In this document: in pieces, positions 11,907-33,911 of the stretch
Position numbering within the stretch: the first letter of the stretch is position 1
Layout: the number at the start of each line of letters is the position of its first letter
NCBI GenBank assembly: GCA_027069135.1
Contig: JALXFE010000182.1
Coordinates: 67,175-131,174, forward strand
Reading direction: 5' to 3'
Length of the DNA: 64,000 nucleotides
Source: Thermoanaerobaculia bacterium
GTDB lineage: Bacteria; Acidobacteriota; Thermoanaerobaculia; Multivoradales; JAHZIX01
The notes under the pieces: model-generated
Database searches by the model: none
Seen by the model: the letters and a program-made list of their open reading frames with translations, nothing else
Told to the model about the DNA's origin: nothing
Position numbers and translations under genes: made by a program

Positions 11907-12534
11907 CTCCGGGAGGATCCCGGGAGCTCGGAGGCGTCTCGCCGGTCCTGTTCTTCTTCTGGCGGGGTTCCTCTTCGGGGGCCTGGGCTGTGGCGCCCCG
12001 CCGTCCGACGCTCTCCCCGACGCCGCCCAGCCTGCGTCTTCGGCGGCCCAGGTCGCCCGCACGCTGCCAGGCCCTGACTTTGAGCTCCTCGGCCTCGACG
12101 GCGAGCGGCATCGTCTTTCATCCTATCGGGGCCGGATCGTACTGGTGAATTATTGGGCCACCTGGTGCCTCTCCTGCCGTGACGAGATTCCGGTGCTCAA
12201 CCGTCTGCACGAAGAATTTGCCAACCGCGGTGTCGCCATCGTCGGCGTCGCCACCGACGAAGATGCCGAGACCAAAGTCGTGCCCTACGTCGAAAAGATG
12301 GCCATGGCCTATCCCGTCCTTCTGGATCCTCAGGCGGTCAGCGCGTCGATTTTCGGCGGCTTCGCCGGCTATCCCAGTACCTTTATCCTCGATCCCCAGG
12401 GCCTGATCTACTCCTCCTATCTGGGCGCACAGGAAGAGAAGACCTTCGCCGACGACCTTCGCTACCTCCTGCAAGCTGCACCCAGCGAAGGCGCCACCCT
12501 TCCCGCGGGAGCCATTTCACACCCGGTGGAATAG
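11887..12534 (+). CDS. TlpA/ResA-like periplasmic thiol:disulfide oxidoreductase (thioredoxin fold), lipoprotein.
   Basis: WCxxC active site 'YWATWCLSCRDEIP'. Lipobox 'LGCG'. The track ORF starts at 11824, but the internal ATG at 11887 (MDIRR...) gives the signal peptide. Overlaps the 3' end of the DUF3179 gene. Confidence 0.8.
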   Translation: MDIRRGSSGRIPGARRRLAGPVLLLAGFLFGGLGCGAPPSDALPDAAQPASSAAQVARTLPGPDFELLGLDGERHRLSSYRGRIVLVNYWATWCLSCRDEIPVLNRLHEEFANRGVAIVGVATDEDAETKVVPYVEKMAMAYPVLLDPQAVSASIFGGFAGYPSTFILDPQGLIYSSYLGAQEEKTFADDLRYLLQAAPSEGATLPAGAISHPVE

Positions 12535-18989: not shown

Positions 18990-20472
18990 TGCGGAAGCTG
19001 TTGGCCAGGAGGGTCAGGGTCGGCGCGGCTCCGCCGGAAGTCGGCATGAAGCTGCCGTCGACCACGAAGAGATTCGCTACATCGTGGGCTTGGCAATAAC
19101 CGTTGAGCACCGAGGTGGTCGGGTCGTCACCAGCCCGGCAGGTGCCCTGGACAAGATAGGAGGAGGTACCGCCGATGTCGGTGGCGGCGAGATCCACACC
19201 CCCCAGGTCGTCCAAGAGCTCGAAGGCCCGGTCCAGCAGCCACCGTCCAGCCCGCCGGTGGTGTCCCGGAAGATCGAGGTGAATGCGGGCGACCGGTAAG
19301 CCCCGGGCGTCGCGGGTCTCCGGATCCAAGTCCACGAAGGTACGCGAGTTCGGGAGGAAATCGTGGAAGACCTCGCAGTAGAGGGTCAGAGGGTTCTCCT
19401 TGGGGACGATTCCGAAGCGCAGAACCCCACCCTTGGCCAGGTCGGATACGCCTTCGGGAAGAAAATAATGATCCATGACGGACACGCCCAAGAACGGTGC
19501 CGCCGATTCCGGGGCCCCCGCGAGCCGTCCCTGCCCCATCGAGACACCATGGAATTGCAAATGGCGCCCCACCCGGCCGCCGTTGTTGGCCAGGCCGTTC
19601 GGGAAACGCGGTGATTTGGAAAGGAGGAGAAGGCGGGCGGACTCGATGGCGGAGCAGCTGACACACACGATCTTGGCTCGGACCTCGACTTCCTCGCCGC
19701 TGCTGTTGAAGTACACGCAGCCGGAAGCGCGGCCACGGCGGTCGACGGTCACCTCTTTGACTTGCGAGTGAGGTCGGATCTCGCAGCGGCCGGTGGCTTC
19801 AGCGCGGGCCAGGAGAGCCTCCGGGCTGGTGCCTCGGGCGCCGATCGGGCATCCGAGACCAGCGCATTCCTCGCAATACCGACAGGCCGGGCGGCCCTGG
19901 TACGGATGGGAGTTCACGGCCCGAGGCGTCGCAAAGGGGTGGAGGCTGCGAGCTTGGCAAGTCTCTTTGAGAGCGCTGGCGATGGGATGAGCCTCGAGGG
20001 GGGGCAACGGGTAGGGGCGGGAGCGGCGGCCGGCGAAGGGATCCTCACCGGCCTGACCGGCAACCCCGATCTCCCACTCGGCCCGGCTCAGGTAGGGCTC
20101 CAGTTCCTCGTAGGCGTAGGGCCAATCAGCCAATTCTTCATAGTCTCCGAAACGACTCTGCATTCGGAAATCATCCGGGAGAAAGCGGTAGAAATAGCCT
20201 CCCATATGGACCGTACCGCCCCCGACACACACAGCGCCCCAACCCAGCCGGGTTCGGATCGGGGAGAGGGTCTTAGAGGTGACAACGGTGTGGGGATCGT
20301 CGTCTACCGAAGGAAAGAAGTCTTCGGCCAACAGACCGTCCGAGTGTTCGAAATCCCGCCGGGAATAGCGGGGGCCTCTCTCCAATACCAGGACCTGGGC
20401 TCCGGCTCGCGCCAGGGTCAGGGCCAGAGCACCTCCTCCCGCTCCACTTCCGATGATAACGGCATCATGCAT
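18943..20472 (-). CDS. GMC-family FAD-dependent oxidoreductase.
   Basis: N-terminal 'DAVIIGSGAGGGALALTLARAGAQVLVLERG' FAD-binding fold. C-terminal GMC signature '...GTCRAGDDPTTSVLNGYCQAHDVANLFVVDGSFMPTSGGAAPTLTL'. Confidence 0.85.
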   Translation of the reverse strand: MHDAVIIGSGAGGGALALTLARAGAQVLVLERGPRYSRRDFEHSDGLLAEDFFPSVDDDPHTVVTSKTLSPIRTRLGWGAVCVGGGTVHMGGYFYRFLPDDFRMQSRFGDYEELADWPYAYEELEPYLSRAEWEIGVAGQAGEDPFAGRRSRPYPLPPLEAHPIASALKETCQARSLHPFATPRAVNSHPYQGRPACRYCEECAGLGCPIGARGTSPEALLARAEATGRCEIRPHSQVKEVTVDRRGRASGCVYFNSSGEEVEVRAKIVCVSCSAIESARLLLLSKSPRFPNGLANNGGRVGRHLQFHGVSMGQGRLAGAPESAAPFLGVSVMDHYFLPEGVSDLAKGGVLRFGIVPKENPLTLYCEVFHDFLPNSRTFVDLDPETRDARGLPVARIHLDLPGHHRRAGRWLLDRAFELLDDLGGVDLAATDIGGTSSYLVQGTCRAGDDPTTSVLNGYCQAHDVANLFVVDGSFMPTSGGAAPTLTLLANSFRSADHIVGRWKDGDFG

Positions 20473-20518
20473 ATTTATATCTCGCCTAGGTTTTCAAGTC
20501 TAAAGTATACTGTGCGCG

Positions 20519-21541
20519 ATGGAAGCGGACCCGAAAACAATGTCCCCGGATCTCAAGCTCCGGCGACTGGCCAATGCCTATCAACTCTCCCGCGCCGTCC
20601 AGGTGGCCGCCCGCCTGGGCATCGGCCGGTTGTTACGGGATGGACCGATGTCCTGTCCCGACCTGGCCCGGGCGACGGCTACGGACGGTGGAGTGCTGAT
20701 CCGGCTCCTGCGCTTCCTGGCCGAGCTCCAAGTGGTGGAGGAGCTCCCGGGCAACGTCTTTGGTCCCACCCCTGTTTCCAATGTACTGCATCGGGTGGAC
20801 AACATCGGCCAGGGAGAGGAAGCCTGGGCTACCTGGAGCGCCTTGCCGGAGGCCCTCGAGTCAGGCCGTCCGGTCTTCTCCGAGGTCCACGGCCAGTCGT
20901 TCTATGAATATGCCCAGTCCCACCCGCAGCAGGGAGCCAACTGGCGGGAGTCCACCGAGGCCTTTGCCGCTGGCCTCGCCCCGTCCCTGGTCGACGCTCT
21001 GGATCTGTCCGGTGCTGCGTCCGTGGTCGACGTCGGTGGGGGGCAGGGCACTCTCCTGGCCGAGATTCTGCGGCGATATCCGGACTGCCGAGGCATTCTC
21101 TTGGATCTCCCGGAGGTTGTCCGCGGGGCCCCAGCGGTTCTGAAGAAGGCCGGTATTTCCCGGCGCTGCGAGGTCTCGCCGGGAGATGCCCTCGAGGGCG
21201 TACCCGTCGGCGCTGACGTCTATTTATTGAGCCGAGTGCTCTTCAATTGGCAGGACGAGCAGGCCGTCCGCTTGCTCTCTCGTTGCCGCGGCGCTGTTAA
21301 CCCCGGAGGTCGGGTGATGGTGGCCGAAGTGCTGAGCCCTCCGGAGGGGACACCGGAGCGCCGAGCCTTGGCCGGGGCCGACCTGCATCATTTCCTGCTT
21401 TGGGGCAGCAAGTTTCGTACCTTAGCGGAGTACGAGACTCTCTTCGGCCGTGCTGGCCTGGTTCTCGCTGAAGTCCGTGAAGTGGGGGCCGGCGACTGGA
21501 GAATCCTGGAAGGAAGGATCGACCTAGGCTCTCGCCGGTAG
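20519..21541 (+). CDS. Class I SAM-dependent O-methyltransferase (COMT/Methyltransf_2-like, with N-terminal dimerisation domain).
   Basis: SAM motif 'VVDVGGGQGTLLAEILRRYPDCRGILLDLPEVV'. Typical length (340 aa) and layout. Confidence 0.8.
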   Translation: MEADPKTMSPDLKLRRLANAYQLSRAVQVAARLGIGRLLRDGPMSCPDLARATATDGGVLIRLLRFLAELQVVEELPGNVFGPTPVSNVLHRVDNIGQGEEAWATWSALPEALESGRPVFSEVHGQSFYEYAQSHPQQGANWRESTEAFAAGLAPSLVDALDLSGAASVVDVGGGQGTLLAEILRRYPDCRGILLDLPEVVRGAPAVLKKAGISRRCEVSPGDALEGVPVGADVYLLSRVLFNWQDEQAVRLLSRCRGAVNPGGRVMVAEVLSPPEGTPERRALAGADLHHFLLWGSKFRTLAEYETLFGRAGLVLAEVREVGAGDWRILEGRIDLGSRR

Positions 21542-21580
21542 ACGTATTTCCTACAATTTTTTGGAGGTGTTGAGAAGCTC

Positions 21581-24500
21581 ATGACGGACTTTCGGGCGGA
21601 TTCCTGGTATCGAGCCCTCACCTGGAGAGAACGGCGAAGGATCTTGGGCGGTTCGGCTGCTGCTAGAGGGGAGGAGCCCCCGGGGGGAGACCTTCTCGAG
21701 AGATGGCACTCCCAGCCACCCTTCAACCGGGGGGAGTTTTTCGGGGAGAGATGGGTCCAGGAAGGGCTCACGGAGGAGGCTTTCGCCCGCATCCTTAGCG
21801 CTACCCTCGGCGAGCTGCGCAACGGATCTATGGATTCGCTGGCTTGGGTCGAGGAGCTCGAGCGGGCCTTTGAGTCTCCGGACGAACTCCTGCTTTCTGA
21901 TCTGCAGCCGAGCCGCGGGGAGGAGAGCAGCCCGTTCCTCGCCATCGTCCGTCCGTTGCTCGCTTCCGGGTATCGGCGCCTACAACGCAGTTTTGATCGC
22001 AGCCCCGACGAGGTTCCCTGGCAGCCGGAGCGGGTCGGCCGTACCCTTATCTCTCACGTCGCGGGCCGGCTCTCCATGTTTCTGCGCCGGGCTCTGGTCC
22101 TGGAGCTGAATATCGCCGGCCTCGAAGGAGGCCTTGAGGGAGAAAACCCGCAGGAACGTTTCGGAGATTTTGTCCGGCGGCTGGGGGAGGAGGAGTGGGC
22201 TCTCGAAATTCTAGAGAGATATCCCGTCCTGACTCGAAAGGTCATCGAGTGTATCGACCAGGGTGTGTCTTTGGGGGAGGAGTTCTTGGAGCGCTTCGCT
22301 CAAGATTGGCCGAGCCTGGAGCGGAGATTCGGTAAGACCGCTGGACCGTCGTTGGGCTCGAGCTTGGGACAGCTCGTGGAGGCTCGGCCCGGTGCCGGAG
22401 ATTCCCATCGCGATGGCCGTTCGGTGATCCTTCTTAAATTCTCCAGTGGCCGAAGGCTGGTCTACAAACCGCGCTCCCTGGCGGCGGAACGGTGCTTCGC
22501 GGAGCTCTTGGATTGGATCGATGAGAAGGGGGCCGAGCCGGCCTTAAAAACCCTCGGTATTTTGGACCGGGGGGAGTACGGTTGGACCGAATTTGTCGAA
22601 CCCGCCGGCTGCGGGAGCGAATCCGCAGTGCGGAGGTTCTACCGCAGGCAGGGGGGCTATCTGGCGCTCCTCTATCTCCTCGATGCCAACGATATCCACT
22701 TCGAGAATCTCATCGCCGCGGGTGAGCACCCGTTCCTGATCGACCTGGAGACTCTTTTTCACCCCCCCATCGACATCATGGAAGAAAGGTATCCCCTTCT
22801 ACTACCGGGCAACGGTCTCTACCGCAGCGTCCACAATATCGGGCTGCTGCCCCACCGGATCTGGGGCGGTGAGGGGCAAGAGGAAGGGGTGGATCTCAGC
22901 GCCCTGGCGTCGGAGGCTGGGCAGAGGACCGCCCAGCGATTGCTGGATATCGACGGGCCTGGCACCGACGGCATGCGCTTCGTGCGCAGACCCGCCGAGA
23001 TTCCCGAGATGGATCACGCTCCGCGATTGGACGGCCGAACTCTCGTGGCCGCCGACTACGCCGATGCCATCCGATCCGGGTTCGAGGGCATCTATCGGCT
23101 CCTTCTCGCCCATCGTCGGGAGCTCCTGGCCGAGGGCGGACCGCTGGCAGCCTTCGCCGGGGTGGAGGTACGGGTGATCTTCCGGCCGACCTTCTACTAC
23201 ACCAGCGTCCTGGAGGAGAGCTTCCATCCGGATGTTTTGCAGGATGCCCTGGAGCGGGATCTGCTCTTCGAGAGTCTGTGGGTGGAGGTCGAGAGCCGCC
23301 CGCGGTTGGCTGCGCTGATCGCGGAGGAGCAGCGGGATCTGGGCCGGACGGATATCCCGGTCTTCACAACCCGGCCCGACTCCCGGGATCTGTGGACCGG
23401 CTTCGGGAAACGTCTTCCGGACTATTGGCGGGAGACCCCGTTGAGCCGGGCGGAGGCGAAGCTCGAGGCCCTCGATGAAGCGGACCTGGGCCGGCAGACC
23501 TGGTTGATCGAGACGTCCCTCAAGACCGTTCGCCGTCCGGAAGAAACGCCCGAGCGGGAGACATATCCTTTTCAGCAAGCCCCCACGGAGGCCACGGCAG
23601 AAGAGCTCCTGAAAGGTGCCGTGGCCGCGGCGAGACGTTTGGAAGGGCTGGCCTTTCGCGGGCCCCAGGGCGACGCATCCTGGTCGATCGTGGCCCCGGT
23701 GGGCACCGGCCATTGGGTCTACGGCCCCGCGGAACCGGGGCTCTACCAGGGGTTGGCGGGGATCGCCCTTTTTCTCGCCTATCTCGGGGCGACAACGGGG
23801 GAGACGTGGTCCACGGATCTGGCCCGGGCTGCCTGGACCACCCTCCGGCACCAGCTGCGGTCCGGACAGATCGCCTTGCCCGGCGTCGGCGCCTTTACCG
23901 GCTGGGGAGGAATCCTCTACAGCGCGGTCCATCTGGGGGTGCTGTGGGACGACGAAGCACTGATTGAAGAGGCCGAAGAGATGGTGGCGGCTCTGCCCGA
24001 GAGAATCGCCCAGGACTCCTGGCACGATGTGGTCGGAGGAGCTGCTGGCTGCCTGCTGAGCCTGCTGAGCCTGCACCGGGTGCGGCCCTCCGAGGGCACC
24101 CGGCGGGCCGCGATCCTGTGCGGCGAGCGGCTGCTGGCCAACGCCAAGACCCTGGAGGTGGGATGCGGGTGGGTGGTGGAGGCCGCAGGTCCGCAGCCCC
24201 TTTCCGGGCTCTCCCACGGTGCCGCGGGCATCGCCCTGGCACTCTTCGAGCTCTCAGATCTGAGTGGGGAAGAGCGTTTCCGGGATCTGGCGCTGGGAGC
24301 CATCGACTACGAGCGCACCCTTTATTCGCCAGCCGATGAGAATTGGATCGACCTGCGGGAGGGGGAGCGCCCGGAAGGGACCTTTCATGGCTCCGGCCAT
24401 GATTTCGTGGTTGGTTGGTGCCATGGCGCACCGGGTATCGGTCTGGCCCGGTTGGCGGGTCTCCGGCATCTCGACGATGCCGCGGTACGCGAGGAAATCG

Positions 24501-24838
24501 CCATCGCGCTCAAGACCACCCGAGCGCTGGGTTTCGGCGCCAACCATAGCCTGTGTCATGGAGATCTCGGGAATCTGGACCTCCTGCTCATCGCCAGCCA
24601 GGTTCTCAAGGATTCCGATCTTCGGACGGCGACCTACCACCTCGCCGGAGGAACCCTCGCCGGCATAAGTCGGCACGGCTGGCTCTACGGTTATCCATCG
24701 AAAGTCGAGCCTTTGGGTCTGATGGTCGGGCTGGCGGGCATCGGATATCAGCTGCTCCGGCTAGCGGCGCCGTCCCGGGTACCGTCGGTTCTCATCTTGG
24801 AGCCGCCGGTGGGATCCGGAGGGGTTGCCGAGAATTGA
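21581..24838 (+). CDS. lanM: Class II lanthipeptide synthetase LanM (N-terminal dehydratase DUF4135 + C-terminal LanC-like cyclase).
   Basis: 1085 aa. Kinase-like dehydratase motif 'NDIHFENLIAAGEHPFLIDLETLFHPP'. LanC zinc-ligand motifs 'GWCHGAPGIGLA' and 'CHGDLGNLDLLL', plus 'SHGAAGIALALFE'. Confidence 0.9.
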   Translation: MTDFRADSWYRALTWRERRRILGGSAAARGEEPPGGDLLERWHSQPPFNRGEFFGERWVQEGLTEEAFARILSATLGELRNGSMDSLAWVEELERAFESPDELLLSDLQPSRGEESSPFLAIVRPLLASGYRRLQRSFDRSPDEVPWQPERVGRTLISHVAGRLSMFLRRALVLELNIAGLEGGLEGENPQERFGDFVRRLGEEEWALEILERYPVLTRKVIECIDQGVSLGEEFLERFAQDWPSLERRFGKTAGPSLGSSLGQLVEARPGAGDSHRDGRSVILLKFSSGRRLVYKPRSLAAERCFAELLDWIDEKGAEPALKTLGILDRGEYGWTEFVEPAGCGSESAVRRFYRRQGGYLALLYLLDANDIHFENLIAAGEHPFLIDLETLFHPPIDIMEERYPLLLPGNGLYRSVHNIGLLPHRIWGGEGQEEGVDLSALASEAGQRTAQRLLDIDGPGTDGMRFVRRPAEIPEMDHAPRLDGRTLVAADYADAIRSGFEGIYRLLLAHRRELLAEGGPLAAFAGVEVRVIFRPTFYYTSVLEESFHPDVLQDALERDLLFESLWVEVESRPRLAALIAEEQRDLGRTDIPVFTTRPDSRDLWTGFGKRLPDYWRETPLSRAEAKLEALDEADLGRQTWLIETSLKTVRRPEETPERETYPFQQAPTEATAEELLKGAVAAARRLEGLAFRGPQGDASWSIVAPVGTGHWVYGPAEPGLYQGLAGIALFLAYLGATTGETWSTDLARAAWTTLRHQLRSGQIALPGVGAFTGWGGILYSAVHLGVLWDDEALIEEAEEMVAALPERIAQDSWHDVVGGAAGCLLSLLSLHRVRPSEGTRRAAILCGERLLANAKTLEVGCGWVVEAAGPQPLSGLSHGAAGIALALFELSDLSGEERFRDLALGAIDYERTLYSPADENWIDLREGERPEGTFHGSGHDFVVGWCHGAPGIGLARLAGLRHLDDAAVREEIAIALKTTRALGFGANHSLCHGDLGNLDLLLIASQVLKDSDLRTATYHLAGGTLAGISRHGWLYGYPSKVEPLGLMVGLAGIGYQLLRLAAPSRVPSVLILEPPVGSGGVAEN

Positions 24839-24862
24839 CATTGAAAATATCTACGGTATAAA
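24835..24862 (+). promoter_or_regulatory. Sigma70-like promoter (TTGACA-16 nt-TATAAA) immediately after, and overlapping, the lanM stop, positioned to drive the precursor gene.
   Basis: TTGACA at 24835-24840, TATAAA at 24857-24862, 16-nt spacer, in an AT-rich 170-bp intergenic region. Confidence 0.4.
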
Positions 24863-24965
24863 ATTAGCTTATTGTGATCTGTCGACTAATCTGACGCCTG
24901 AATGGTCGCCTGGGCGGGCGATAGGCGGACGATTGGACGACGTGAAGTTTCTGTCGGGAGGAATC

Positions 24966-25005
24966 CCTCCTTCTGGCGAGAACCTTCGCACTATCTAGAA
25001 GGAGG
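24966..25005 (+). promoter_or_regulatory. Hairpin that pairs the lanA Shine-Dalgarno (GAAGGAGG) with an upstream anti-SD (CCTCCTTCTGG).
   Basis: 24966-24976 cctccttctgg pairs with 24995-25005 ctagaaggagg: an 11-bp stem with one G.U pair and an 18-nt loop. ATG of lanA is at 25011. Confidence 0.45.
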
Positions 25006-25010
25006 CTTGG

Positions 25011-25235
25011 ATGAAGAAACAGGAAATCGCTCGTGCGTGGAGAGATCCCAAGTACCGCCGGAGCCTGAGCACCGAGCAGAAGGCTCAGCTACCGACCCAT
25101 CCGGCAGAGTGGATGGTGGGGGTCGAGGACGACGTCCTCGCGAGCGTCACCGGTGGCTGTTGCTACCCGGGGAACAATACCGTCACGTTGTGTACCGGCA
25201 TCTGTTCCCCTTGCCCGCCGGTGCATTGCTACTAG
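25011..25235 (+). CDS. lanA: Lanthipeptide precursor (LanA) with an NHLP-like leader ending in a double-glycine and a Cys-rich 25-aa core.
   Basis: 74 aa: MKKQEIARAWRDPKYRRSLSTEQKAQLPTHPAEWMVGVEDDVLASVTGG | CCYPGNNTVTLCTGICSPCPPVHCY. 'ARAWRDPKYRRSL' resembles the NHLP leader motif (AKAWKDPaFkqeL). GG precedes the core. SD GAAGGAGG sits 5 nt upstream. Located between lanM and a C39-peptidase ABC transporter. Confidence 0.8.
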   Translation: MKKQEIARAWRDPKYRRSLSTEQKAQLPTHPAEWMVGVEDDVLASVTGGCCYPGNNTVTLCTGICSPCPPVHCY

Positions 25236-25265
25236 GCTCTTGAGGCTTTAGCTTTCGGCGGGTAA

Positions 25266-25300
25266 GACCACTGACGGGCCTTACCCGCCGGAGTCGGAGC
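25266..25300. terminator. Hairpin between convergent lanA and lanT. Candidate bidirectional terminator.
   Basis: cggcgggtaag (25266-25276) pairs with cttacccgccg (25290-25300): an 11-bp stem with a 13-nt loop. No clear U-tract. Confidence 0.35.
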
Positions 25301-25313
25301 CACGCCAGGGCCC

Positions 25314-27542
25314 TCAACTTCCAGAGTCCTCCCGCCTGCGCAGCTGCGCATCGACCAGGCGGGCGTAGGCTCCCGGTCTCTCCATCAACTCCTGATGGGT
25401 TCCCCTCTCGACGATCCTCCCTCCCTCCATTACCAGAATCTGATCGGCGGCCATGATGGTGCTGAGCCGATGGGCGATGACGATGCGGGTACAGCGCAGC
25501 TCGGCCAAAGCACTTTGGATCCGTGATTCAGTGAGGGCATCGAGGTTGCTGGTGGCTTCGTCGAGGAGCAGAATGGCGGGGCGATGAAGGAGGGCGCGGG
25601 CGAGGGCGAGGCGCTGGCGCTGGCCGCCGGAAAGGGAAGCGCCGCCGTCCGGCAGCATGGTGTCGAAGCCCATGGGCATGGCCAGGATTTCTTCTTCGAT
25701 CTGGGCCGTTCGGGCGGCTTCCCGGACCCGGTCCAAGGACGCCTCGGGATCTGCCAGGGCGATGTTCTCCCGGATCGATCCACCGAAGAGAAAGGGGTGC
25801 TGGAGGACGACGCCGAGCCGCGAGCGCAACGCCTGCAAATCGAGGCCCGCCAGGTCTTGTCCGTCGTAGAGGATCCGTCCCGAGGTCGGTCGGTAGAGCC
25901 CGACGCAGAGATGGGCGAGGGTTGATTTTCCGGCCCCGGAGGAACCCACCAACGCGACGAAGCTTCCGGGCTCGATGTCGACGGATACTTCCTGCACCAC
26001 CTTCGGCGCCTCGGCGCTATAACGGAAGCTGACGGTCTCCAAGAGGATGCCGCCGCGAAGCTTGGCAACGGCCGCCCCCTTTTGTCCGTCTCGCTCCCTA
26101 GGGGTTTCCATGACGTCCTGGATGCGTTCCAGATAGCTCCCCAGGAGTTGTAGCTGAACGCCGGTCGAGACCAGGGTAGAAAGGGGGCCGAGGAAGCCCA
26201 CCGCCAGGGCGTTGAGAGCCAGCATCGTGCCCAGAGTGAGCTCACCCTCGAGGACCAGGAATCCCCCGAAGACCAGGACGATCAGGGGCGAGGCGGTGGC
26301 CAGGGCGGAGAGCAGGGAGTCAAAGAGGGCGTTCAGGCGGCCCCGGGCCAGGGAGACGTTGAGCTCGTCGGTGAAAAGGCCGGACCAATGCTCCACCGCT
26401 CTGCGCTCTGCCCCTACGGTCTTGAGGGTTTCAATCCCCGTCAACATCTGCACCTGAAAGGCCCGGGACCGGGCCTCGGTGCTGAGAGATTCCGCCATGA
26501 GAGCCCGTTGCCGGCGACGGGTAGCCAGGAACAATCCGACCCGCAGAGCTCCGAGGAAGAGCACCAGGAGCGCGATGGGCACGTGAGTCAGAAACATCAG
26601 GACGAGGTAGAGACCGACGAGCACACCGTCGAGGATCCCCGAGAGGGCGCCGGAGGTGAGAATCTCCCGGATGGTCGAGTTGCTGTTGAGGCGCATCATG
26701 AGATCGCCAGCGGAGCGCTGCTGAAAAAAGGCGTAGGGGAGCTCGACCAGATGATCGAGAAACTCCAACGTCATTCGCCAATCGAGCTGAGTGCGCAGCT
26801 GGAGGAGCAAGTAGGCGCGGACGAGAGAAGAGAGAAAGTCGAAGACGACGATGGCTCCAAGGCCGACGGCAGCCACCGTCAGCAGGCCGTAATCTCCCCG
26901 GGGCACAACCCGGTCCACCAGCAAGGCGGTCCAGAGAGGAAGGGCCAAAGCCAAGAGCTGGAGGAGTACCGACATCACCAGGAGGCGCGAGAGAAGCCCG
27001 GAGTGCTCGAGGATCCGACGCAGGTAGCGCCCGACACCTCGGGAGCGGGGGCCGGAAGTCTCGAAGTCCTCTCCCGGTCGCAGGGTCAATGCGATGCCGG
27101 TGAAGGATCGTTCCAGCTCCCCGCGGGAGACGGTCCGTTTCCCGGCCGTCGGATCGACGATCCGGGCGCCCTTGCCGGTCAGTTTTTCCAGAACCACGAA
27201 ATGATCCATCTGCCAGTGAAGGATCGATCCCGGCTCGAGGAACTCGAGATCTCCGACTTCCTCGATGCGGACCCCCCGGCCCTGCAACCCGAATCGACGG
27301 GCGGTCTCGAGGAGAGTCCGGGCGTCCGCGCCGTCGCGGCCGATGCCGCAGGCATTCCGGACTTCGTCCAGGCCCACCGGCTTTCCGAAGTAGGCCAGGA
27401 CCATGGCCAGGCAGGCGGGCCCACAGTCGGTGGCGGAGGTCTGCAGGATCGGCAGAAGGGTCCGACGGCGCCGAGCACCCAGGCCCATGAGGAGGGGGAA
27501 TCGCCTCGCCAGGGCGTCGAAGAAGCGGGAGCTACTCTTCAT
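25314..27542 (-). CDS. lanT: Bifunctional peptidase-C39/ABC transporter (LanT/SunT-type bacteriocin processing-export protein).
   Basis: N-terminal C39 domain 'QTSATDCGPACLAMVLAYFG' (catalytic Cys) with downstream 'HFVVLE'. Six-TM domain. Walker A 'GSSGAGKST'. Signature 'LSGGQRQRLALARAL'. Walker B 'ILLLDEATS'. Confidence 0.9.
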   Translation of the reverse strand: MKSSSRFFDALARRFPLLMGLGARRRRTLLPILQTSATDCGPACLAMVLAYFGKPVGLDEVRNACGIGRDGADARTLLETARRFGLQGRGVRIEEVGDLEFLEPGSILHWQMDHFVVLEKLTGKGARIVDPTAGKRTVSRGELERSFTGIALTLRPGEDFETSGPRSRGVGRYLRRILEHSGLLSRLLVMSVLLQLLALALPLWTALLVDRVVPRGDYGLLTVAAVGLGAIVVFDFLSSLVRAYLLLQLRTQLDWRMTLEFLDHLVELPYAFFQQRSAGDLMMRLNSNSTIREILTSGALSGILDGVLVGLYLVLMFLTHVPIALLVLFLGALRVGLFLATRRRQRALMAESLSTEARSRAFQVQMLTGIETLKTVGAERRAVEHWSGLFTDELNVSLARGRLNALFDSLLSALATASPLIVLVFGGFLVLEGELTLGTMLALNALAVGFLGPLSTLVSTGVQLQLLGSYLERIQDVMETPRERDGQKGAAVAKLRGGILLETVSFRYSAEAPKVVQEVSVDIEPGSFVALVGSSGAGKSTLAHLCVGLYRPTSGRILYDGQDLAGLDLQALRSRLGVVLQHPFLFGGSIRENIALADPEASLDRVREAARTAQIEEEILAMPMGFDTMLPDGGASLSGGQRQRLALARALLHRPAILLLDEATSNLDALTESRIQSALAELRCTRIVIAHRLSTIMAADQILVMEGGRIVERGTHQELMERPGAYARLVDAQLRRREDSGS

Positions 27543-28176
27543 CGCCGTCCAAGAATTCCGCGAGCGGGGGCAACAGGCGCGACAGGATGCGCTCGGAACG
27601 AATCAGGATCTCGACGGTTCCCTGGAGCCCATGGTGGTACGGGAGAGAATCGTTGCCGATCTCGAAGCTCTCCCCCGGAAGCCGGGCGAAGGCGATAGCC
27701 AAGGGACCTGAAAGGGTCATGGCGTCGGCAAGGTCGGTGTCCAGGAGGCGGTCCAGCTCAAGAGGTCCTAGAATCCGCTCCTCGACCCGGTCTACGGTCA
27801 GTCGCTGGTAGCTGGTGCCGTAGCCTCGCAGGCTCAGATGCAGGGGCATACCAGGGCCGAGGACGGGACGATAGTGGCCGGGAAACACAGCGATGAGGGT
27901 GGGGCTCGAAACCTTGCTCCGGTCCGGCATTAGCACCATAGCGGTGCCCTGGGCATATTCCCCGATTGTCCCCAAGACCCCGAAGAGTATCGCGCTGGCC
28001 ACCACCAGGAGCACAAGCCCTTCGACCCAGCGGATCCAGCGGGGAGAAATCTCCAACGGACCGGTCAAGCGGCGATGCCCGGCAGCATGGGCCGCGACCG
28101 CTTGGCGGCGGAAGAGGCCCTGGCGCGGCTTTTCCGGAGCAGAGCTTGTTGCCGGACGAGATCGCTGTTCCATCAT
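27532..28176 (-). CDS. Short HlyD/CvaA-like secretion accessory protein (membrane fusion protein partner of LanT).
   Basis: 'LFRRQAVAAHAAGHRRLTGPLEISPRWIRW' resembles the CvaA/LcnD N-terminal motif (FRqEAl...). Single TM 'GLVLLVVASAILFGVLG'. Only 214 aa, lacking a long coiled coil. 11-nt overlap with the lanT start. Confidence 0.6.
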   Translation of the reverse strand: MMEQRSRPATSSAPEKPRQGLFRRQAVAAHAAGHRRLTGPLEISPRWIRWVEGLVLLVVASAILFGVLGTIGEYAQGTAMVLMPDRSKVSSPTLIAVFPGHYRPVLGPGMPLHLSLRGYGTSYQRLTVDRVEERILGPLELDRLLDTDLADAMTLSGPLAIAFARLPGESFEIGNDSLPYHHGLQGTVEILIRSERILSRLLPPLAEFLDGDEE

Positions 28177-28484: not shown

Positions 28485-30203
28485 ATGACGGAACCCACAA
28501 GACGGGTGAAACGTGATCGGCGCAGCCTGTTTTCTGCTGTGACGACCGGCTTGGCTCAGCGCTTGGATTCACGCTCCGCCAACGCGCAGCGTCGCCATTT
28601 CATGCGCACACCGCTCAATCCGGAATGGCCGAACGGGGAAGACCAGCGAGCGGTGCCGGGCCCGCCGTCGGCGGCGGTGATCGCCCTCAACCGGATGGGC
28701 TTCGGGCCGAGACCGGGGGACTTGGATGCCTTCAACGTTTTAGGCGCCGACGACACCCAGCGGATGCAAGCCTACGTCGCCCAGCAATTGGATCCCGACA
28801 GCCTTACGGATACCGATCTCGAGACCCGCCTTGCAGCGGCGAATTACACCACCCTCAACAAGACTCTCCTGGAGCTCTGGACTGATCATGTCGTCGCGGA
28901 TCCACCATACGAGGAACGGATCCGTCCCATGACGGAGACCGAGAGCATGACCTTTCTACGAGGGATCTTCAGCAAGAAGCAGCTCTTCGAAGTCATGGTT
29001 GAGTTCTGGCATAACCACTTCAGTATTTTCGGCCGGGAATTTGAGATCGCCCCTGTGTGGGTGCATTACGATCGGGACGTCATCCGCGCCAACGCGTTGG
29101 GCAACTTTCGTCAGATGCTGGGCGCCGACGCCGCCAGCACGGCCATGTTGCTCTACCTGGACAACTACGCCAACTCCGCCGACGGCCCCAACGAAAACTA
29201 TGCTCGGGAGCTCTTCGAGCTACATACCCTTGGCGCTGAGAATTATTACGGCCTGATCCCGCGCTCCCAGGTACCCACGGACGGCAACGGTGTCCCCGTG
29301 GGGTTCGTGGACGAAGATATCTTCGATGCGACCCGGGCGCTGACCGGTTGGACCGTGCGCAACCGGGATTGGGATCCGGATTTCGGCGACACCGGGGAGT
29401 TCTTTTACTACGCTCCCTGGCATGACGACGGTCCGAAAGCCTTCTTGAATGTCGTGATCGGTGGCGCTCAGCCTCCCATGAAGGACGGCCTGGACCTTTT
29501 GGATGCCCTGGCGGCCCATCCCGGGACCGGCCGATTCATCGCCCGCAAGTTGTGCCGCAGATTGATCGGGGACAGCCCGCCCCAGAGTCTCATCGACCAG
29601 GCGGCGGCGGTGTTCACCGCTCAGAAAGACGCACCGGATCAGATCAAACAGGTGCTGCAGACCATTCTGCTTTCGCCGGACTTTCTTTCTGCCTGGGGGG
29701 ATAAGGTCAAGCGGCCCTTCGAGATCGCCGTCAGCGCCTTGCGCATCGGTGACTCCCAGCTCAATTTCCACCTGGATGACGGAGATTCCGGAACCTTCCA
29801 ATGGCTCTTCCGGCAGACCGGCCATCACCTCTTCGACTGGCATCCTCCGAACGGCTATCCGGATTTCAAAGTGGCCTGGCAGAGCACGACCCCCCGGGTC
29901 ATGAGCTGGCGCTTGGTCAACTGGCTGGTGGACTCCGAGGACGACCTGGCCAATTACTACATGGACCTGGTGGGGGCGACGCCGGTGGGTGTGCGTTCCG
30001 CCAACGCCATAGTCGATTTTTGGGTAGACCGTGTCTTCGGTCGCACCATCGAACCGGTGAATCGTGCTGAGTTCGTCGATTTTATGGCCCAGGGTTTCCT
30101 CCCGAATTTGGATTTGCCCTTGGACACCGACGCCGACACCCAGAGCCGCCTGAGATCTCTCGTCGCTCTCATGTTCATGTCGCCGGAGTTTCTCTGGCGA
30201 TGA
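28485..30203 (+). CDS. DUF1800-family protein.
   Basis: ~570 aa, placed directly upstream of a DUF1501 gene (the canonical DUF1800/DUF1501 pair). Assignment rests on family resemblance and pairing. Confidence 0.7.
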   Translation: MTEPTRRVKRDRRSLFSAVTTGLAQRLDSRSANAQRRHFMRTPLNPEWPNGEDQRAVPGPPSAAVIALNRMGFGPRPGDLDAFNVLGADDTQRMQAYVAQQLDPDSLTDTDLETRLAAANYTTLNKTLLELWTDHVVADPPYEERIRPMTETESMTFLRGIFSKKQLFEVMVEFWHNHFSIFGREFEIAPVWVHYDRDVIRANALGNFRQMLGADAASTAMLLYLDNYANSADGPNENYARELFELHTLGAENYYGLIPRSQVPTDGNGVPVGFVDEDIFDATRALTGWTVRNRDWDPDFGDTGEFFYYAPWHDDGPKAFLNVVIGGAQPPMKDGLDLLDALAAHPGTGRFIARKLCRRLIGDSPPQSLIDQAAAVFTAQKDAPDQIKQVLQTILLSPDFLSAWGDKVKRPFEIAVSALRIGDSQLNFHLDDGDSGTFQWLFRQTGHHLFDWHPPNGYPDFKVAWQSTTPRVMSWRLVNWLVDSEDDLANYYMDLVGATPVGVRSANAIVDFWVDRVFGRTIEPVNRAEFVDFMAQGFLPNLDLPLDTDADTQSRLRSLVALMFMSPEFLWR

Positions 30204-30248
30204 ACCGCCCGACATCCAGATGAAAGAGTTGAGAGGAAGGGGAGAGAA

Positions 30249-31607
30249 ATGACCGAGATCACCCGACGCGGATTCGTCGCCGGCTGTTGCGCAGGGATTG
30301 CAGCCATGTCCGGCTCTCGTTTTAACACCATGGCCTTCGCGGATCCGGCCTTGAATCAGGAAACCCTGGTCGTCCTTTTTCTGCGGGGCGGGGTCGATGG
30401 CCTGAATCTCATCCCCCCCATCGGCGGGGCGGATCGGGGGCATTACGAGACGGCCCGGCCGCAGCTAGCGGTCCCTGATACGGGAGCCGGGGCCGCCCTA
30501 CCCTTGGGCGCGGAGCCCTTCGGCCTGCATCCCTCGGCGGCACCGTTGCACGAGCTCTATCAGGACGGTCGCTTGGCATTGGTGCATGGTGTCGGCCAGG
30601 GAGAACCGAACCGTAGTCATTTTGACGCCATGCAATTTATCGAGCTCGGAACCCCGGGGCAGAAGGGTACGCCGACGGGCTGGCTGGCCCGCTATCTGGC
30701 GACCGCTTCGAACCTCCCGGCGGAGATCATCATGCCGTCTTTGGCCGTCGGCAATCTGCAGACGACCTCGTTGCTGGGCGATTTCGAGACGGTGAACATG
30801 AGTAGTGCTGATCAATTCAACATGAATATCGGTCCGTGGCGGTGGCGCCCGTCCCAGCGTCAATCGCTCCGTCACCTCTACGAGGCGGATACCACTTGGC
30901 TCCATGCTTCCGGTCTCCAATCGCTCAACGCTCTGGACGTCGTGGAGCTCAACGTCAGCGGTGATTACACGCCGTCAAACGGTGCCGTATATCCCACCGG
31001 TCAGTTTGGCGATCATCTCCAGCTGATCGCCCGGATGATCAAGCTCGACCTGGGGTTGACCGTAGGTACTCTGGATCTGGGGGGTTGGGATACCCACAAC
31101 CAGCAGGGCCAGGGATCCGGTGGTTACTTCGCGGGCATCGTTCAAGAGCTGGCGGAGGGCCTGGCAGCCTTCTACGCCGACCTTGACGGCAATGGTGCCG
31201 AGAACTTCACCAGCCGCCTGACGGTGGTGGTGCAGAGTGAATTCGGCCGCCGGGTTGCCCAGAACGCGGACAACGGCACCGACCATGGCTTCGGCAATCC
31301 GATGATGGTCTTGGGCGGCAACGTCAACGGCGGTCTCCACGGAACCTTCCCGGGTCTGGCACCGGGCCAGCTCTACGAAGGGATCGACGTCGCCGTCACC
31401 ACGAATTACCGTCGGATCCTGAGTGAGATTCTCATACGACGCATGTGCAACCCCAACCTCGGCGCCATCTTCCCCGGGTACACCGGGTACGCGCCGCTGG
31501 GAGTGGTCCAGGGTACGGACTTGCCACCGGTCCTCGGCGACACGATCTTTGCCGACGGTTTTGAAAGCGGCGACACTTCCGGCTGGAGCGGGGCCATCGG
31601 CGGCTGA
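30249..31607 (+). CDS. DUF1501-family protein (sulfatase-like fold) with Tat signal.
   Basis: Twin-arginine signal 'TRRGFVAGCCAGIAAMSG'. 'GGWDTHNQQ' motif. C-terminal 'DGFESGDTSGW' tail. Confidence 0.8.
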   Translation: MTEITRRGFVAGCCAGIAAMSGSRFNTMAFADPALNQETLVVLFLRGGVDGLNLIPPIGGADRGHYETARPQLAVPDTGAGAALPLGAEPFGLHPSAAPLHELYQDGRLALVHGVGQGEPNRSHFDAMQFIELGTPGQKGTPTGWLARYLATASNLPAEIIMPSLAVGNLQTTSLLGDFETVNMSSADQFNMNIGPWRWRPSQRQSLRHLYEADTTWLHASGLQSLNALDVVELNVSGDYTPSNGAVYPTGQFGDHLQLIARMIKLDLGLTVGTLDLGGWDTHNQQGQGSGGYFAGIVQELAEGLAAFYADLDGNGAENFTSRLTVVVQSEFGRRVAQNADNGTDHGFGNPMMVLGGNVNGGLHGTFPGLAPGQLYEGIDVAVTTNYRRILSEILIRRMCNPNLGAIFPGYTGYAPLGVVQGTDLPPVLGDTIFADGFESGDTSGWSGAIGG

Positions 31608-33715: not shown

Positions 33716-33911
33716 CGGGGCATTGTATGCGGTGGAGTCTCCGGGGGGAAACCTTGGCGGGCTTTGCGCCGAGGCGGCAACCGTTTGGATTCTGCCCGAG
33801 CCATTTCGATGGCAGGTATTCCTTGATGTATTATCAGGCTGTGTAGAGAAATTCGAAGAGGTGACCGCAAGGGATGAGGGCCTCCGCCGTCTTCATCGGA
33901 GGTGCCGAACA

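What the first reader, a model, noticed from the sequence alone, without database searches (positions are those of the whole stretch)
25011..25235. Precursor core has more Cys (6) than Ser/Thr (4) and ends in -HCY
With only T9, T11, T13 and S18 available for dehydration, at most four (methyl)lanthionine rings can form. Two Cys (likely within the N-terminal CC pair or C23) must stay free, form a disulfide, or undergo another modification. The adjacent COMT-type O-methyltransferase and GMC oxidoreductase are candidate tailoring enzymes (for example C-terminal or Tyr O-methylation, oxidation). The single-copy precursor contrasts with the multi-precursor arrays common for NHLP/Nif11 systems.
Basis: inference. 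Interest (0 to 1): 0.65.

Follow-up and report, generated by a model that had tools for sequence, protein, structure and literature searches.

The report
Lanthipeptide-thiazole gene cluster with extra methyltransferase
The cysteine-rich peptide gene is real and sits in a lanthipeptide gene cluster whose neighbouring GMC flavoenzyme is about 64% identical to two enzymes shown in 2026 to turn the cysteine after a Gly-Gly motif into a thiazole, which probably accounts for one "spare" cysteine, while a co-inherited, atypical methyltransferase remains unexplained.

Summary
ORF 25011..25235 encodes a 74-aa precursor whose last 25 residues, CCYPGNNTVTLCTGICSPCPPVHCY, contain 6 Cys and 4 Ser/Thr. The leader is not NHLP/Nif11: it matches the mersacidin/lichenicidin type-2 model TIGR03898.

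The cluster spans 18943..28176: GMC oxidoreductase, COMT-fold methyltransferase, LanM, LanA, C39-ABC exporter and a truncated HlyD-like protein. This gene set recurs around about 18 related precursors from Acidobacteriota MAGs and metagenomes, in three different gene orders.

A 2026 Nature paper (PMC13083261) showed that homologous GMC enzymes ThaO and TheO convert the Gly-Cys of the "GGC" leader/core junction into a thiazole in such LanM clusters. The window's GMC is about 64% identical to both, and every family precursor carries GGC. So Cys1 most likely becomes a thiazole, up to four Cys form (methyl)lanthionines, and at least one Cys remains.

The methyltransferase belongs to a dedicated clade of about 22 proteins, all lacking the canonical catalytic His and Glu. 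It is absent from the published clusters and co-occurs with a conserved C-terminal motif. Its target is unknown; Tyr O-methylation is not supported.

This is a new variant of a very recently described kind.

The parts
18943..20472 (-). GMC-family FAD oxidoreductase, orthologue of ThaO/TheO (predicted thiazole-forming enzyme). It has no signal peptide, an N-terminal GSGAGGG FAD motif, and a 4-Cys cluster CRYCEECAGLGCPIGA.
   Evidence: Pfam GMC_oxred_N/C. Closest PDB chains are FAD-GDH/FDH catalytic subunits. Identity is 63.8% to ThaO over 401 aa and 63.4% to TheO over 366 aa. It groups with ThaO (=P0144) in the NJ tree. The 4-Cys cluster is conserved in 123 of the 124 family members examined.
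20473..20518 (.). Short AT-rich divergent intergenic region between the GMC and methyltransferase genes. It is 67 bp long if the methyltransferase starts at the ATG at 20540, as in database entry P0012.
   Evidence: The same head-to-head GMC/OMT arrangement, with gaps of 38-100 bp, is seen in L001, L007, L015, L016, L017 and L019.
20519..21541 (+). COMT-fold (Methyltransf_2 + Dimerisation) SAM-dependent methyltransferase. It lacks the canonical catalytic residues: Phe242 replaces the His of 'LHDW' and Phe299 replaces the Glu of 'GxERT'. The SAM motif DVGGGQG is kept.
21581..24838 (+). LanM class II lanthipeptide synthetase (DUF4135 dehydratase domain + LanC-like cyclase domain). The cyclase motifs SHGAAG, WCHG and CHG are present.
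   Evidence: TIGR03897 at 934 bits against a cutoff of 304. Pfam domains. Sequence. 38% identity to the N-terminal 400 aa of TheM.
24835..24864 (+). Sigma-70-like promoter TTGACA-18-TAAAAT, about 147 nt upstream of the precursor ATG.
   Evidence: It matches 11 of 12 positions and is the only such site in 9.6 kb. This is a consensus match only.
25011..25157 (+). Leader peptide (49 aa) of the mersacidin/lichenicidin type-2 family. It ends in V-T-G-G with a double-glycine-type hydrophobic pattern.
   Evidence: TIGR03898, E 5.8e-15, 55 bits. Alignment A1.
25152..25160 (+). GGC motif (Gly48-Gly49-Cys50). This is the site at which ThaO/TheO form a thiazole from Gly(-1) and Cys1.
   Evidence: Invariant in all 18 family precursors. 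The experimental precedent is in PMC13083261.
25158..25235 (+). Core peptide CCYPGNNTVTLCTGICSPCPPVHCY plus the stop codon. It contains the family C-terminal module [ST]-x-x-C-[ST]-P-C-P-P-x-x-C-[FY].
25236..25313 (.). Hairpin between the convergent LanA and LanT genes (11-bp core stem CGGCGGGTAAG/CTTACCCGCCG). It is a likely bidirectional terminator.
   Evidence: dG -41.8 kcal/mol, z -3.8.
25314..27542 (-). LanT-type exporter with a Peptidase_C39 domain plus ABC membrane and ATPase domains.
   Evidence: The best NCBIfam match is NHLM_micro_ABC1, but it scores below the cutoff (649 against 853 bits).
27532..28176 (-). 214-aa protein with one TM helix, overlapping the LanT start by 11 nt. It is a truncated HlyD-like membrane-fusion accessory protein.
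   Evidence: No Pfam or NCBIfam hit. Orthologues occur in L001 and L007. A profile of the three matches both ends of the 652-aa HlyD/GAF protein of L019 (E 3.4e-49).

Best explanation
The window carries a tha/the-type hybrid RiPP cluster from an Acidobacteriota-like genome. The proposed pathway has five steps.

1. The 74-aa precursor, which has a mersacidin/lichenicidin-type leader, is made from its own promoter.

2. LanM dehydrates up to four Ser/Thr (T8, T10, T13, S17) and forms up to four (methyl)lanthionines with Cys.

3. The cytoplasmic GMC flavoenzyme, an orthologue of ThaO/TheO, acts on Cys1 of the invariant GGC junction. It oxidises Cys1 to a thioaldehyde/enethiol, which closes onto the carbonyl of Gly(-1) and loses water. 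The result is a thiazole (net -20 Da). One of the 'spare' Cys is therefore not spare.

4. A dedicated COMT-fold methyltransferase that lacks a general base adds one or more methyl groups. It probably acts on the conserved C-terminal module C-[ST]-P-C-P-P-x-x-C-[FY]. My ranking of targets is: Cys S-methylation, then the C-terminal methyl ester, then other sites.

5. The C39-ABC transporter and a truncated HlyD-like partner export the product.

What is shown here: gene content, family memberships, orthology and conserved linkage. What is inferred from homology to experimentally characterised enzymes: steps 2 and 3. What is inferred from co-occurrence only: steps 4 and 5.
For: The leader matches TIGR03898 at 55 bits against a cutoff of 23.5. 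LanM matches TIGR03897 at 934 bits.

The GMC is 63.8% identical to ThaO and 63.4% to TheO. ThaO (=P0144) falls in the same tree group as the window's enzyme, while TheO's nearest relative (P0157, 88% identity) falls in the other major branch. The window enzyme is therefore bracketed by two validated thiazole-forming enzymes.

PMC13083261 provides the experimental precedent. ThaA has the same leader family and the core ...SISGG|CSGICTYGGWPTCFCC, with 5 Cys and 3 Ser/Thr. It acquires two Lan rings from ThaM and a thiazole at Gly(-1)-Cys1 from ThaO. The evidence was NMR, loss of the modification in the C1A mutant, and a -20.03 Da shift. Two Cys remain free. TheO performs the same reaction at the GGC of TheA.

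GGC is invariant in all 18 related precursors. GMC, OMT, LanM, LanA and LanT are linked in the window and in L001, L007, L015, L017+L003, L019, L010 and L004. These loci show three gene orders, and the L004 GMC comes from a different branch of the tree.

The OMT clade of about 22 proteins stands apart from the next homologues (at least 45% identity within the clade, about 40% beyond it). None of the 22 has the catalytic His or Glu, which 81 and 80 of the next 97 homologues keep. All 18 OMT-associated cores carry C-[ST]-x-C-x4-C-x(1-2). ThaA and TheA lack both the motif and a methyltransferase.
Against: There is no experimental data for this peptide. Position +2 is Cys here, whereas it is Gly in TheA (where G2A impairs TheO) and Ser in ThaA.

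Two OMT/LanM loci (L008, L013) have no GMC within the sequence available, and one GMC/OMT pair (L016) has no LanM nearby.

The GMC family is large: 3264 hits at E<=1e-40, with more than 120 at 57% identity or higher. Most of their genomic contexts are unknown, so not every member need be a RiPP enzyme.

A thiazole built on Gly(-1) would remove the very bond that a double-glycine C39 peptidase is expected to cut. The methyltransferase's substrate is purely inferred.
Confidence: 0.7

Rival explanations
1. The surplus Cys simply stay free or form a disulfide, as with Cys1-Cys8 of haloduracin alpha. The GMC and OMT perform peripheral tailoring such as Tyr or C-terminal O-methylation and an alcohol oxidation. 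No heterocycle is formed.
For: Two Cys of ThaA stayed iodoacetamide-reactive even after full modification in E. coli, so free or disulfide Cys do occur in this family. After subtracting Cys1, the window peptide still has 5 Cys for 4 Ser/Thr. The variable C-terminal residue is compatible with methylation of the backbone carboxylate.
Against: The GMC is an orthologue (about 64% identity) of two enzymes shown to make a thiazole at exactly this motif. Tyr is not conserved. The OMT lacks the His/Glu used for phenol deprotonation. No conserved undehydrated alcohol is evident as a GMC substrate.
Confidence: 0.15
2. The GMC and/or the methyltransferase do not act on the peptide at all. They form a small-molecule redox/methylation pair that merely travels with the LanM cluster.
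For: L016 has the GMC/OMT pair without LanM, LanA or LanT within about 9 kb on either side. The closest solved relatives of the OMT are small-molecule enzymes (LaPhzM, DtpM, CalO6, AlpH, MmcR). The closest solved relatives of the GMC are sugar dehydrogenases. The GMC family is very large.
Against: ThaO and TheO act directly on precursor peptides. The OMT clade is small and was found beside LanM in 10 of 11 independent loci with readable context. Linkage survives three different gene orders.
Confidence: 0.1
3. This Cys-rich peptide is not the LanM substrate. Ser/Thr-rich precursors elsewhere in the genome are the true substrates.
For: Only 64 kb of a 142-kb contig could be examined, and the rest of the genome is unseen.
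Against: LanA lies directly next to LanM in every related locus. LanA and LanM identities fall in parallel (LanA/LanM: 64/63% in L007, 45/42% in L004). No other TIGR03898-like peptide is present in the window. The homologous ThaA and TheA are dehydrated by their adjacent LanM.
Confidence: 0.03

Closest known systems
tha cluster (ThaA/ThaM/ThaO) of 'Ca. Moanaiibacterium opulentum', Thermoanaerobaculia (Nature 2026, PMC13083261)
   Same: The precursor has a mersacidin/lichenicidin-type leader ending in GG followed by Cys, with a Cys-rich core holding more Cys than Ser/Thr. The cluster has a LanM, a GMC oxidoreductase (63.8% identical over 401 aa) and a C39/ABC export system. In ThaA the surplus Cys1 becomes a thiazole and two Cys stay free.
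   Different: The tha cluster has no methyltransferase. The ThaA core (CSGICTYGGWPTCFCC) lacks the C[ST]PCPPxxC[FY] module and the CC pair. The published work reported no conserved cluster architecture, whereas the architecture here recurs in at least 8 loci. The same genome also holds an OMT-type locus (L013) that the paper did not study.
the cluster (TheA/TheM/TheO/TheB/TheN), soil Thermoanaerobaculia MAG GCA_035278895.1 (same paper)
   Same: The GGC motif is followed by several residues before the first Ser/Thr, as in the window (first Thr at +8). The GMC is 63.4% identical over 366 aa. L004 also has a TheB-like gluconate-2-dehydrogenase subunit-3 gene.
   Different: The window has no TheB or TheN homologue and has a methyltransferase instead. 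TheA has Gly at +2, which is needed by TheO, where the window has Cys. The C-terminal module is different (SCVGPGEVCP).
Mersacidin / lichenicidin-alpha / haloduracin-alpha type-2 lantibiotics (TIGR03898)
   Same: The leader family is the same, modification is by LanM, and Cys is the first core residue (from my own knowledge: mersacidin and haloduracin alpha).
   Different: The core has no Glu-containing lipid II-binding ring motif, and indeed no acidic residue at all. No LanD is present for AviMeCys formation. GMC and methyltransferase tailoring are present instead.
PtyA/PtyM/PtyS proteusin system of 'Ca. Entotheonella factor' (Helf et al. 2017, as summarised in PMC11285071)
   Same: A Cys-rich precursor is encoded with a LanM and a SAM-dependent methyltransferase that S-methylates Cys. 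This is the only precedent I found for methylating surplus Cys in a LanM cluster.
   Different: It has an NHLP/proteusin-type leader.
LahSB (C-terminal carboxyl methyltransferase of Lachnospiraceae class II lanthipeptides, PDB 6UAK)
   Same: A methyltransferase in a class II lanthipeptide cluster that tolerates different C-terminal residues.
   Different: It was not among the 60 best PDB matches listed for the window's enzyme, which resembles COMT-type small-molecule methyltransferases. Methylation of the C-terminus here is only a hypothesis.
YcaO/dehydrogenase azole formation and LanD-type Cys oxidation
   Same: The end product is the same (a thiazole), or the first step is the same (flavin-dependent oxidation of Cys to a thioaldehyde/enethiol).
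   Different: No YcaO, azoline dehydrogenase or HFCD flavoprotein gene was found among the genes from 11.5 to 37.3 kb that were annotated.

Membership tests
[quoted passage not shown] | The leader matches the curated HMM above its trusted cutoff. | tested here: met
   55 bits against a cutoff of 23.5, E 5.8e-15, residues 5-49.
Mersacidin-like lipid II-binding lantibiotics | A core ring motif with a conserved Glu (C-T-x-[ST]-x-E-C type; from my own knowledge). | tested here: not met
   The window's core contains no Glu or Asp, and none is conserved across the 18 cores.
NHLP / Nif11 leader precursors | The leader matches the NHLP or Nif11 HMMs. | tested here: not met
   With the threshold relaxed to E<=10, the only other hit is nitrile hydratase alpha at 15 bits (cutoff 250). 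Only the transporter resembles NHLM_micro_ABC1, and it scores below the cutoff.
Class II lanthipeptide system | A LanM with DUF4135 dehydratase and LanC-like cyclase domains, encoded next to the precursor. | tested here: met
   TIGR03897 at 934 bits. PF13575 and PF05147 both match. The zinc-ligand motifs WCHG and CHG are present. The stop codon lies 172 nt upstream of the LanA start.
tha/the-type GMC-thiazole lanthipeptides | A Gly-Gly-Cys motif at the leader/core junction. | tested here: met
   Gly48-Gly49-Cys50 in the window. The motif is invariant in 18 of 18 relatives.
tha/the-type GMC-thiazole lanthipeptides | A GMC oxidoreductase orthologous to ThaO/TheO, encoded in the cluster. | tested here: met
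   63.8% and 63.4% identity. It shares a tree group with ThaO. The FAD motif and 4-Cys cluster are shared. It lies 1.1 kb from LanM.
tha/the-type GMC-thiazole lanthipeptides | A -20 Da thiazole is actually formed at Gly(-1)-Cys1. | not testable with these tools
   This needs co-expression with MS/MS or NMR.
COMT-type (family 2) O-methyltransferases | Methyltransf_2 fold with a dimerisation domain and a SAM-binding motif. | tested here: met
   PF00891 at E 6e-41 and PF08100 at E 5e-10. The DVGGGQG motif is present.
COMT-type (family 2) O-methyltransferases | A catalytic His (LHDW) and Glu (GxERT) acting as general base for hydroxyl methylation. | tested here: not met
   Phe242 and Phe299 occupy these positions in the window. 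Neither His nor Glu occurs at these positions in any of the 22 clade members, against 81 and 80 of 97 outgroup homologues.
Double-glycine leader / C39-ABC export | A C39 peptidase-ABC transporter in the cluster and a GG site with hydrophobic residues at -4, -7 and -12. | tested here: met
   PF03412 at E 1.4e-29. V-4, L-7 and V-12 are present in the leader. Actual cleavage is not testable, and it conflicts with thiazole formation at the same bond.
PtyS-like RiPP Cys S-methyltransferases | Sequence homology to PtyS and S-methylation of precursor Cys. | not tested
Only the review summary was read.

The most novel reading that the evidence does not exclude
The His/Glu-less COMT-fold enzyme may be a new peptide methyltransferase that works together with the GMC enzyme. 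One possibility is that it S-methylates a surplus Cys. Another is that it traps a GMC-generated enethiolate in the conserved C-[ST]-P-C-P-P-x-x-C-[FY] module. In addition, the invariant Cys-Cys after GG in subfamily A could be converted into a tandem bis-thiazole. Either outcome would add chemistry not reported for tha/the clusters or for any lanthipeptide.
Probability: 0.25. Interest if true: 0.75.

Novelty: new variant of a known kind. Interest (0 to 1): 0.55.

Why it matters
GMC-dependent, ATP-independent thiazole formation in ribosomal peptides was reported only in February 2026, from two clusters, and the authors saw no conserved architecture. This window and its relatives show that the enzyme sits in a recurrent, well-delimited cassette of GMC, methyltransferase, LanM, LanA, exporter and short HlyD-like protein. 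They also show that the GGC target motif and a second, C-terminal Cys-rich module are separable. A dedicated methyltransferase clade that has lost the usual catalytic dyad co-evolves with the system. Together these give a concrete, testable lead to a further modification of thiazole-lanthipeptide hybrids. They also raise an unresolved question: how is a double-glycine leader removed once its scissile bond is part of a thiazole?

Tried and rejected
1. I searched the whole window for further precursors, using phmmer with the precursor and a scan for Cys-rich tails. None was found.

2. I tested for NHLP/Nif11 membership. It was rejected.

3. I initially read the alignment to fructose dehydrogenase as showing that the window's GMC had lost its catalytic residues (FDH's His aligned to Tyr439, and the residue corresponding to FDH's C-terminal Asn to Ala483). 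The Ala/small residue is shared by all 124 family members examined and the Tyr by most of them, including ThaO. This is therefore a family trait, not a special feature, and I dropped the point.

4. The GMC at the edge of L003 is not an orthologue: it gave no tblastn hit. The real partner is probably on L017 from the same sample.

5. Tyr O-methylation and side-chain carboxyl methylation were rejected, because no Tyr, Asp or Glu is conserved in the cores.

6. A literature search for the core motif CSPCPP/CTPCPP returned only an unrelated keratin paper. One search was wasted on 'TGGCC', which is a common DNA word.

7. Searches for 'GMC + lanthipeptide + LanM' found nothing relevant. The precedent surfaced only with 'glucose-methanol-choline' + RiPP.

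8. Genome and metagenome pattern scans yielded only 4 loci. The Acidobacteriota assignment therefore rests on the nearest relatives.

9. The original PtyS paper could not be read.
Full report
**1. Checking the observation**

The ORF at 25011..25235 (+) is preceded by AGGAGG 5 nt upstream of its ATG. It encodes a 74-aa peptide: MKKQEIARAWRDPKYRRSLSTEQKAQLPTHPAEWMVGVEDDVLASVTGG followed by CCYPGNNTVTLCTGICSPCPPVHCY.

- Counting from the residue after Gly-Gly, Cys are at 1, 2, 12, 16, 19 and 24.
- Ser/Thr are T8, T10, T13 and S17.

A near-consensus promoter-like site (TTGACA-18-TAAAAT) lies at 24835..24864, just after the LanM stop. A strong hairpin follows the LanA stop (dG -41.8 kcal/mol, z -3.8). 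No other precursor-like ORF exists in the 64-kb window.

**2. What surrounds it**

Pfam and NCBIfam scans define a compact cluster:

- GMC oxidoreductase, 18943..20472 (-)
- COMT-fold methyltransferase, 20519..21541 (+)
- LanM, 21581..24838 (+); TIGR03897 at 934 bits
- the precursor
- C39-ABC exporter, 25314..27542 (-)
- an overlapping 214-aa ORF, 27532..28176 (-)

The 214-aa ORF has no library hit. A profile of it and its two orthologues matches both ends of a 652-aa HlyD/GAF protein in a related locus (E 3.4e-49). It is therefore a truncated HlyD-like accessory protein.

The flanks are unrelated to the cluster. On one side is a Mokosh MkoC defence gene. On the other are DUF1800/DUF1501 genes. 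Among the genes annotated, no LanD, YcaO, LanP or LanFEG genes were seen.

**3. The leader family**

The precursor matches TIGR03898 (mersacidin/lichenicidin type 2) at 55 bits against a cutoff of 23.5. With the threshold relaxed to E<=10, the only other hit is a 15-bit match to nitrile hydratase alpha. The NHLP/Nif11 framing is therefore wrong. It was probably suggested by the transporter, whose best match (below cutoff) is NHLM_micro_ABC1. The core has no acidic residue, so it also lacks the mersacidin-type lipid II-binding motif.

**4. Relatives**

- A search of 5.8 billion proteins found 11 homologues.
- Context look-ups, pattern scans and a search with the methyltransferase added more.
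- In all I compiled 18 distinct full-length cores.
- Named sources are all Acidobacteriota MAGs.
- Every precursor has Gly-Gly-Cys at the junction and ends in [ST]-x-x-C-[ST]-x-C-x4-C-x(1-2), usually C[ST]PCPPxxC[FY].
- Subfamily A starts with CC; subfamily B starts with CS or CT.
- Cys exceeds Ser/Thr in 14 cores, equals it in 3 and is lower in 1.
- Some loci carry two precursor genes.

**5. Linkage of the tailoring genes**

A tblastn search with the six window proteins against all loci, together with the gene tables, gives the following:

| Loci | Content |
|---|---|
| window, L001, L007 | the complete cassette |
| L015, L019, L017 (continued by L003 from the same sample), L010, L004 | GMC + OMT + LanM/LanA |
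| L008, L013 | OMT + LanM/LanA, without a GMC in the sequence available |
| L016 | an orphan GMC/OMT pair |

Three gene orders occur:

- Most loci have a head-to-head GMC/OMT pair separated by 38-100 bp.
- L004 and L010 have OMT(-), GMC(+), LanA(+).

**6. The methyltransferase**

Its closest solved relatives are small-molecule COMT-type enzymes: LaPhzM (6C5B), DtpM, CalO6, AlpH and MmcR. In all five, the aligned motifs are L-H-D/N-W and G-x-E-R-T/S. The window enzyme has Phe at both the His and the Glu position.

A homologue search showed a discrete clade of about 22 proteins (at least 45% identity), then a drop to about 40%. None of the 22 has the His or the Glu. Among the next 97 homologues, 81 keep the His and 80 keep the Glu. 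The SAM motif DVGGGxG is retained.

No Tyr, Asp, Glu or Lys is conserved in the 18 cores. The plausible methyl acceptors are therefore:

- Cys thiols
- the C-terminal carboxylate
- the N-terminus
- a modified residue

Precedents exist for two of these: Cys S-methylation in a LanM cluster (PtyS) and C-terminal methylation (LahSB). I could not test homology to PtyS.

**7. The GMC enzyme and the key precedent**

Its nearest solved relatives are the FAD/3Fe-4S catalytic subunits of glucose and fructose dehydrogenases. It keeps a 4-Cys cluster, CRYCEECAGLGCPIGA.

Unlike the methyltransferase, it belongs to a large, highly conserved family: 3264 hits at E<=1e-40, with more than 120 at 57% identity or higher.

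A literature search then found the decisive paper: Nature 2026, PMC13083261. Its findings are:

- **The tha cluster.** In this cluster of a Thermoanaerobaculia MAG, ThaA has a mersacidin/lichenicidin-type leader and the core ...SISGG|CSGICTYGGWPTCFCC, with 5 Cys and 3 Ser/Thr.
- **ThaM.** It makes two lanthionines in ThaA, Ser2-Cys16 and Thr6-Cys13.
- **ThaO.** This GMC enzyme converts Gly(-1)-Cys1 into a thiazole. The evidence was a -20.03 Da shift, isotope labelling, loss of the modification in the C1A mutant, and NMR.
- **Free Cys.** Two Cys of ThaA stay iodoacetamide-reactive.
- **TheO.** This enzyme, from a soil MAG, does the same at the GGC of TheA without needing its LanM.
- **Proposed mechanism.** FAD-dependent oxidation of Cys to a thioaldehyde is followed by enethiol attack on the preceding amide carbonyl and loss of water.

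Using the sequences in that paper's supplement, I compared the window's proteins:

- The window's GMC is 63.8% identical to ThaO over 401 aa and 63.4% identical to TheO over 366 aa.
- ThaO is identical to P0144, which lies in the same tree group as the window's enzyme.
- TheO's closest relative (P0157, 88% identity) lies in the other major branch.
- The window enzyme is thus bracketed by two validated thiazole-forming enzymes, and its precursor has the required GGC.

**8. Interpretation**

The 'surplus' of Cys is at least partly explained. Cys1 is most likely consumed in a GMC-made thiazole. Up to four Cys can pair with T8, T10, T13 and S17. At least one Cys remains (Cys2, or one Cys of the C-terminal module). 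It could be free, disulfide-bonded, a second azole, or methylated.

**9. What is new relative to the paper**

- The paper and its supplements never mention a methyltransferase.
- The tha and the clusters lack one, and ThaA and TheA lack the C[ST]PCPPxxC[FY] module.
- The authors reported no conserved cluster architecture, whereas the cassette here recurs.
- The ThaO genome itself (12.18 Mb) holds a second locus of the OMT type (L013), with two GGC precursors but no GMC of its own.
- A profile search of 1.84 billion representatives found 1717 leader relatives. Among the top 149, about 25 have GGC and 14 have the C[ST]PCPP module. Seven of those 14 lack GGC, and other GGC cores carry TheA-like C-termini. 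The N-terminal GGC and the C-terminal module therefore look like separable units. This fits, but does not prove, the pairing GMC with GGC and methyltransferase with the C-terminal module.

**10. Open problems**

- A thiazole built on Gly(-1) removes the bond that the double-glycine C39 peptidase would cut, so the mature N-terminus is unknown.
- The methyl acceptor is unknown.
- The reason for the tight GMC/OMT pairing is unknown. Fourteen of the 22 OMT-clade members share a contig with a GMC, partly inferred from matching contig lengths.

**11. Verdict**

This is a real, correctly located and non-random feature. It is best explained as a new variant of the very recently described GMC-thiazole/lanthipeptide hybrids.

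| Step | Confidence |
|---|---|
| LanM acts on this precursor | about 0.9 |
| Thiazole forms at GGC | about 0.75 |
| The methyltransferase acts on the peptide | about 0.6 |

My conditional ranking for the methyl acceptor is S-methyl-Cys first, then the C-terminal methyl ester, then other sites.

Noticed in passing
window 15375..18989 (-): A 1204-aa helicase + PLD-domain protein matches MkoC of the Mokosh type II anti-phage defence system (PADLOC PDLC03924, E 3e-282). It lies directly beside the GMC gene, and its predicted start overlaps the GMC stop by about 47 nt.
   Followed up: partly
L012 4605..5117 (+), next to a LanM at 5118..8156: A LanA-like ORF with a mersacidin-type leader (ARAWRDPKFRALLSAEELKALPESPVG) is followed by about 14 tandem heptad repeats of the form xxCSTVx. 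This is an unusually repetitive class II precursor.
   Followed up: no
L013 5849..11017 (TARA_SAMEA6034818 scaffold; same genome as ThaO): The organism in which ThaO was characterised carries a second LanM locus. It has two GGC precursors (cores CSFWGACPTSAICSPCPPLQCH and ...SSICTPCPPNYCH) and the atypical methyltransferase, but no GMC within 10 kb. A 516-aa SDR-like gene lies nearby. The ThaO paper does not mention this locus.
   Followed up: partly
L016 8198..10996: A head-to-head GMC/methyltransferase pair with no LanM, LanA or LanT within about 9 kb on either side. The assembly is a low-coverage long-read one, and the GMC hit covers only residues 1-358, so the gene may be frameshifted.
   Followed up: partly
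proteins P0253, P0260, P0290, P0291 versus P0266, P0271, P0293: The C-terminal module C[ST]PCPPxxC[FY] also occurs on precursors whose core does not begin with Cys. Conversely, GGC cores occur with a different conserved C-terminus (SC[VT]GPxxxCP, as in TheA). This suggests two independent modules.
   Followed up: partly
window 24865..25010: If the promoter-like site at 24835..24864 is used, the precursor mRNA has a 5' untranslated region of about 140 nt. I did not examine it for structure or conservation.
   Followed up: no
window 28485..31607 and 33678..36464: A DUF1800 + DUF1501 gene pair and a 928-aa CHAT-domain protein lie downstream of the cluster. A heavy-metal P-type ATPase (12641..14794) and an AhpC/TSA redoxin (11824..12534) lie upstream. 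Nothing links them to the cluster.
   Followed up: no
L015 5134..5301: A second, truncated precursor copy (core CTGWECS, then a stop codon) lies directly upstream of the full-length precursor. It may be a decaying duplicate.
   Followed up: no
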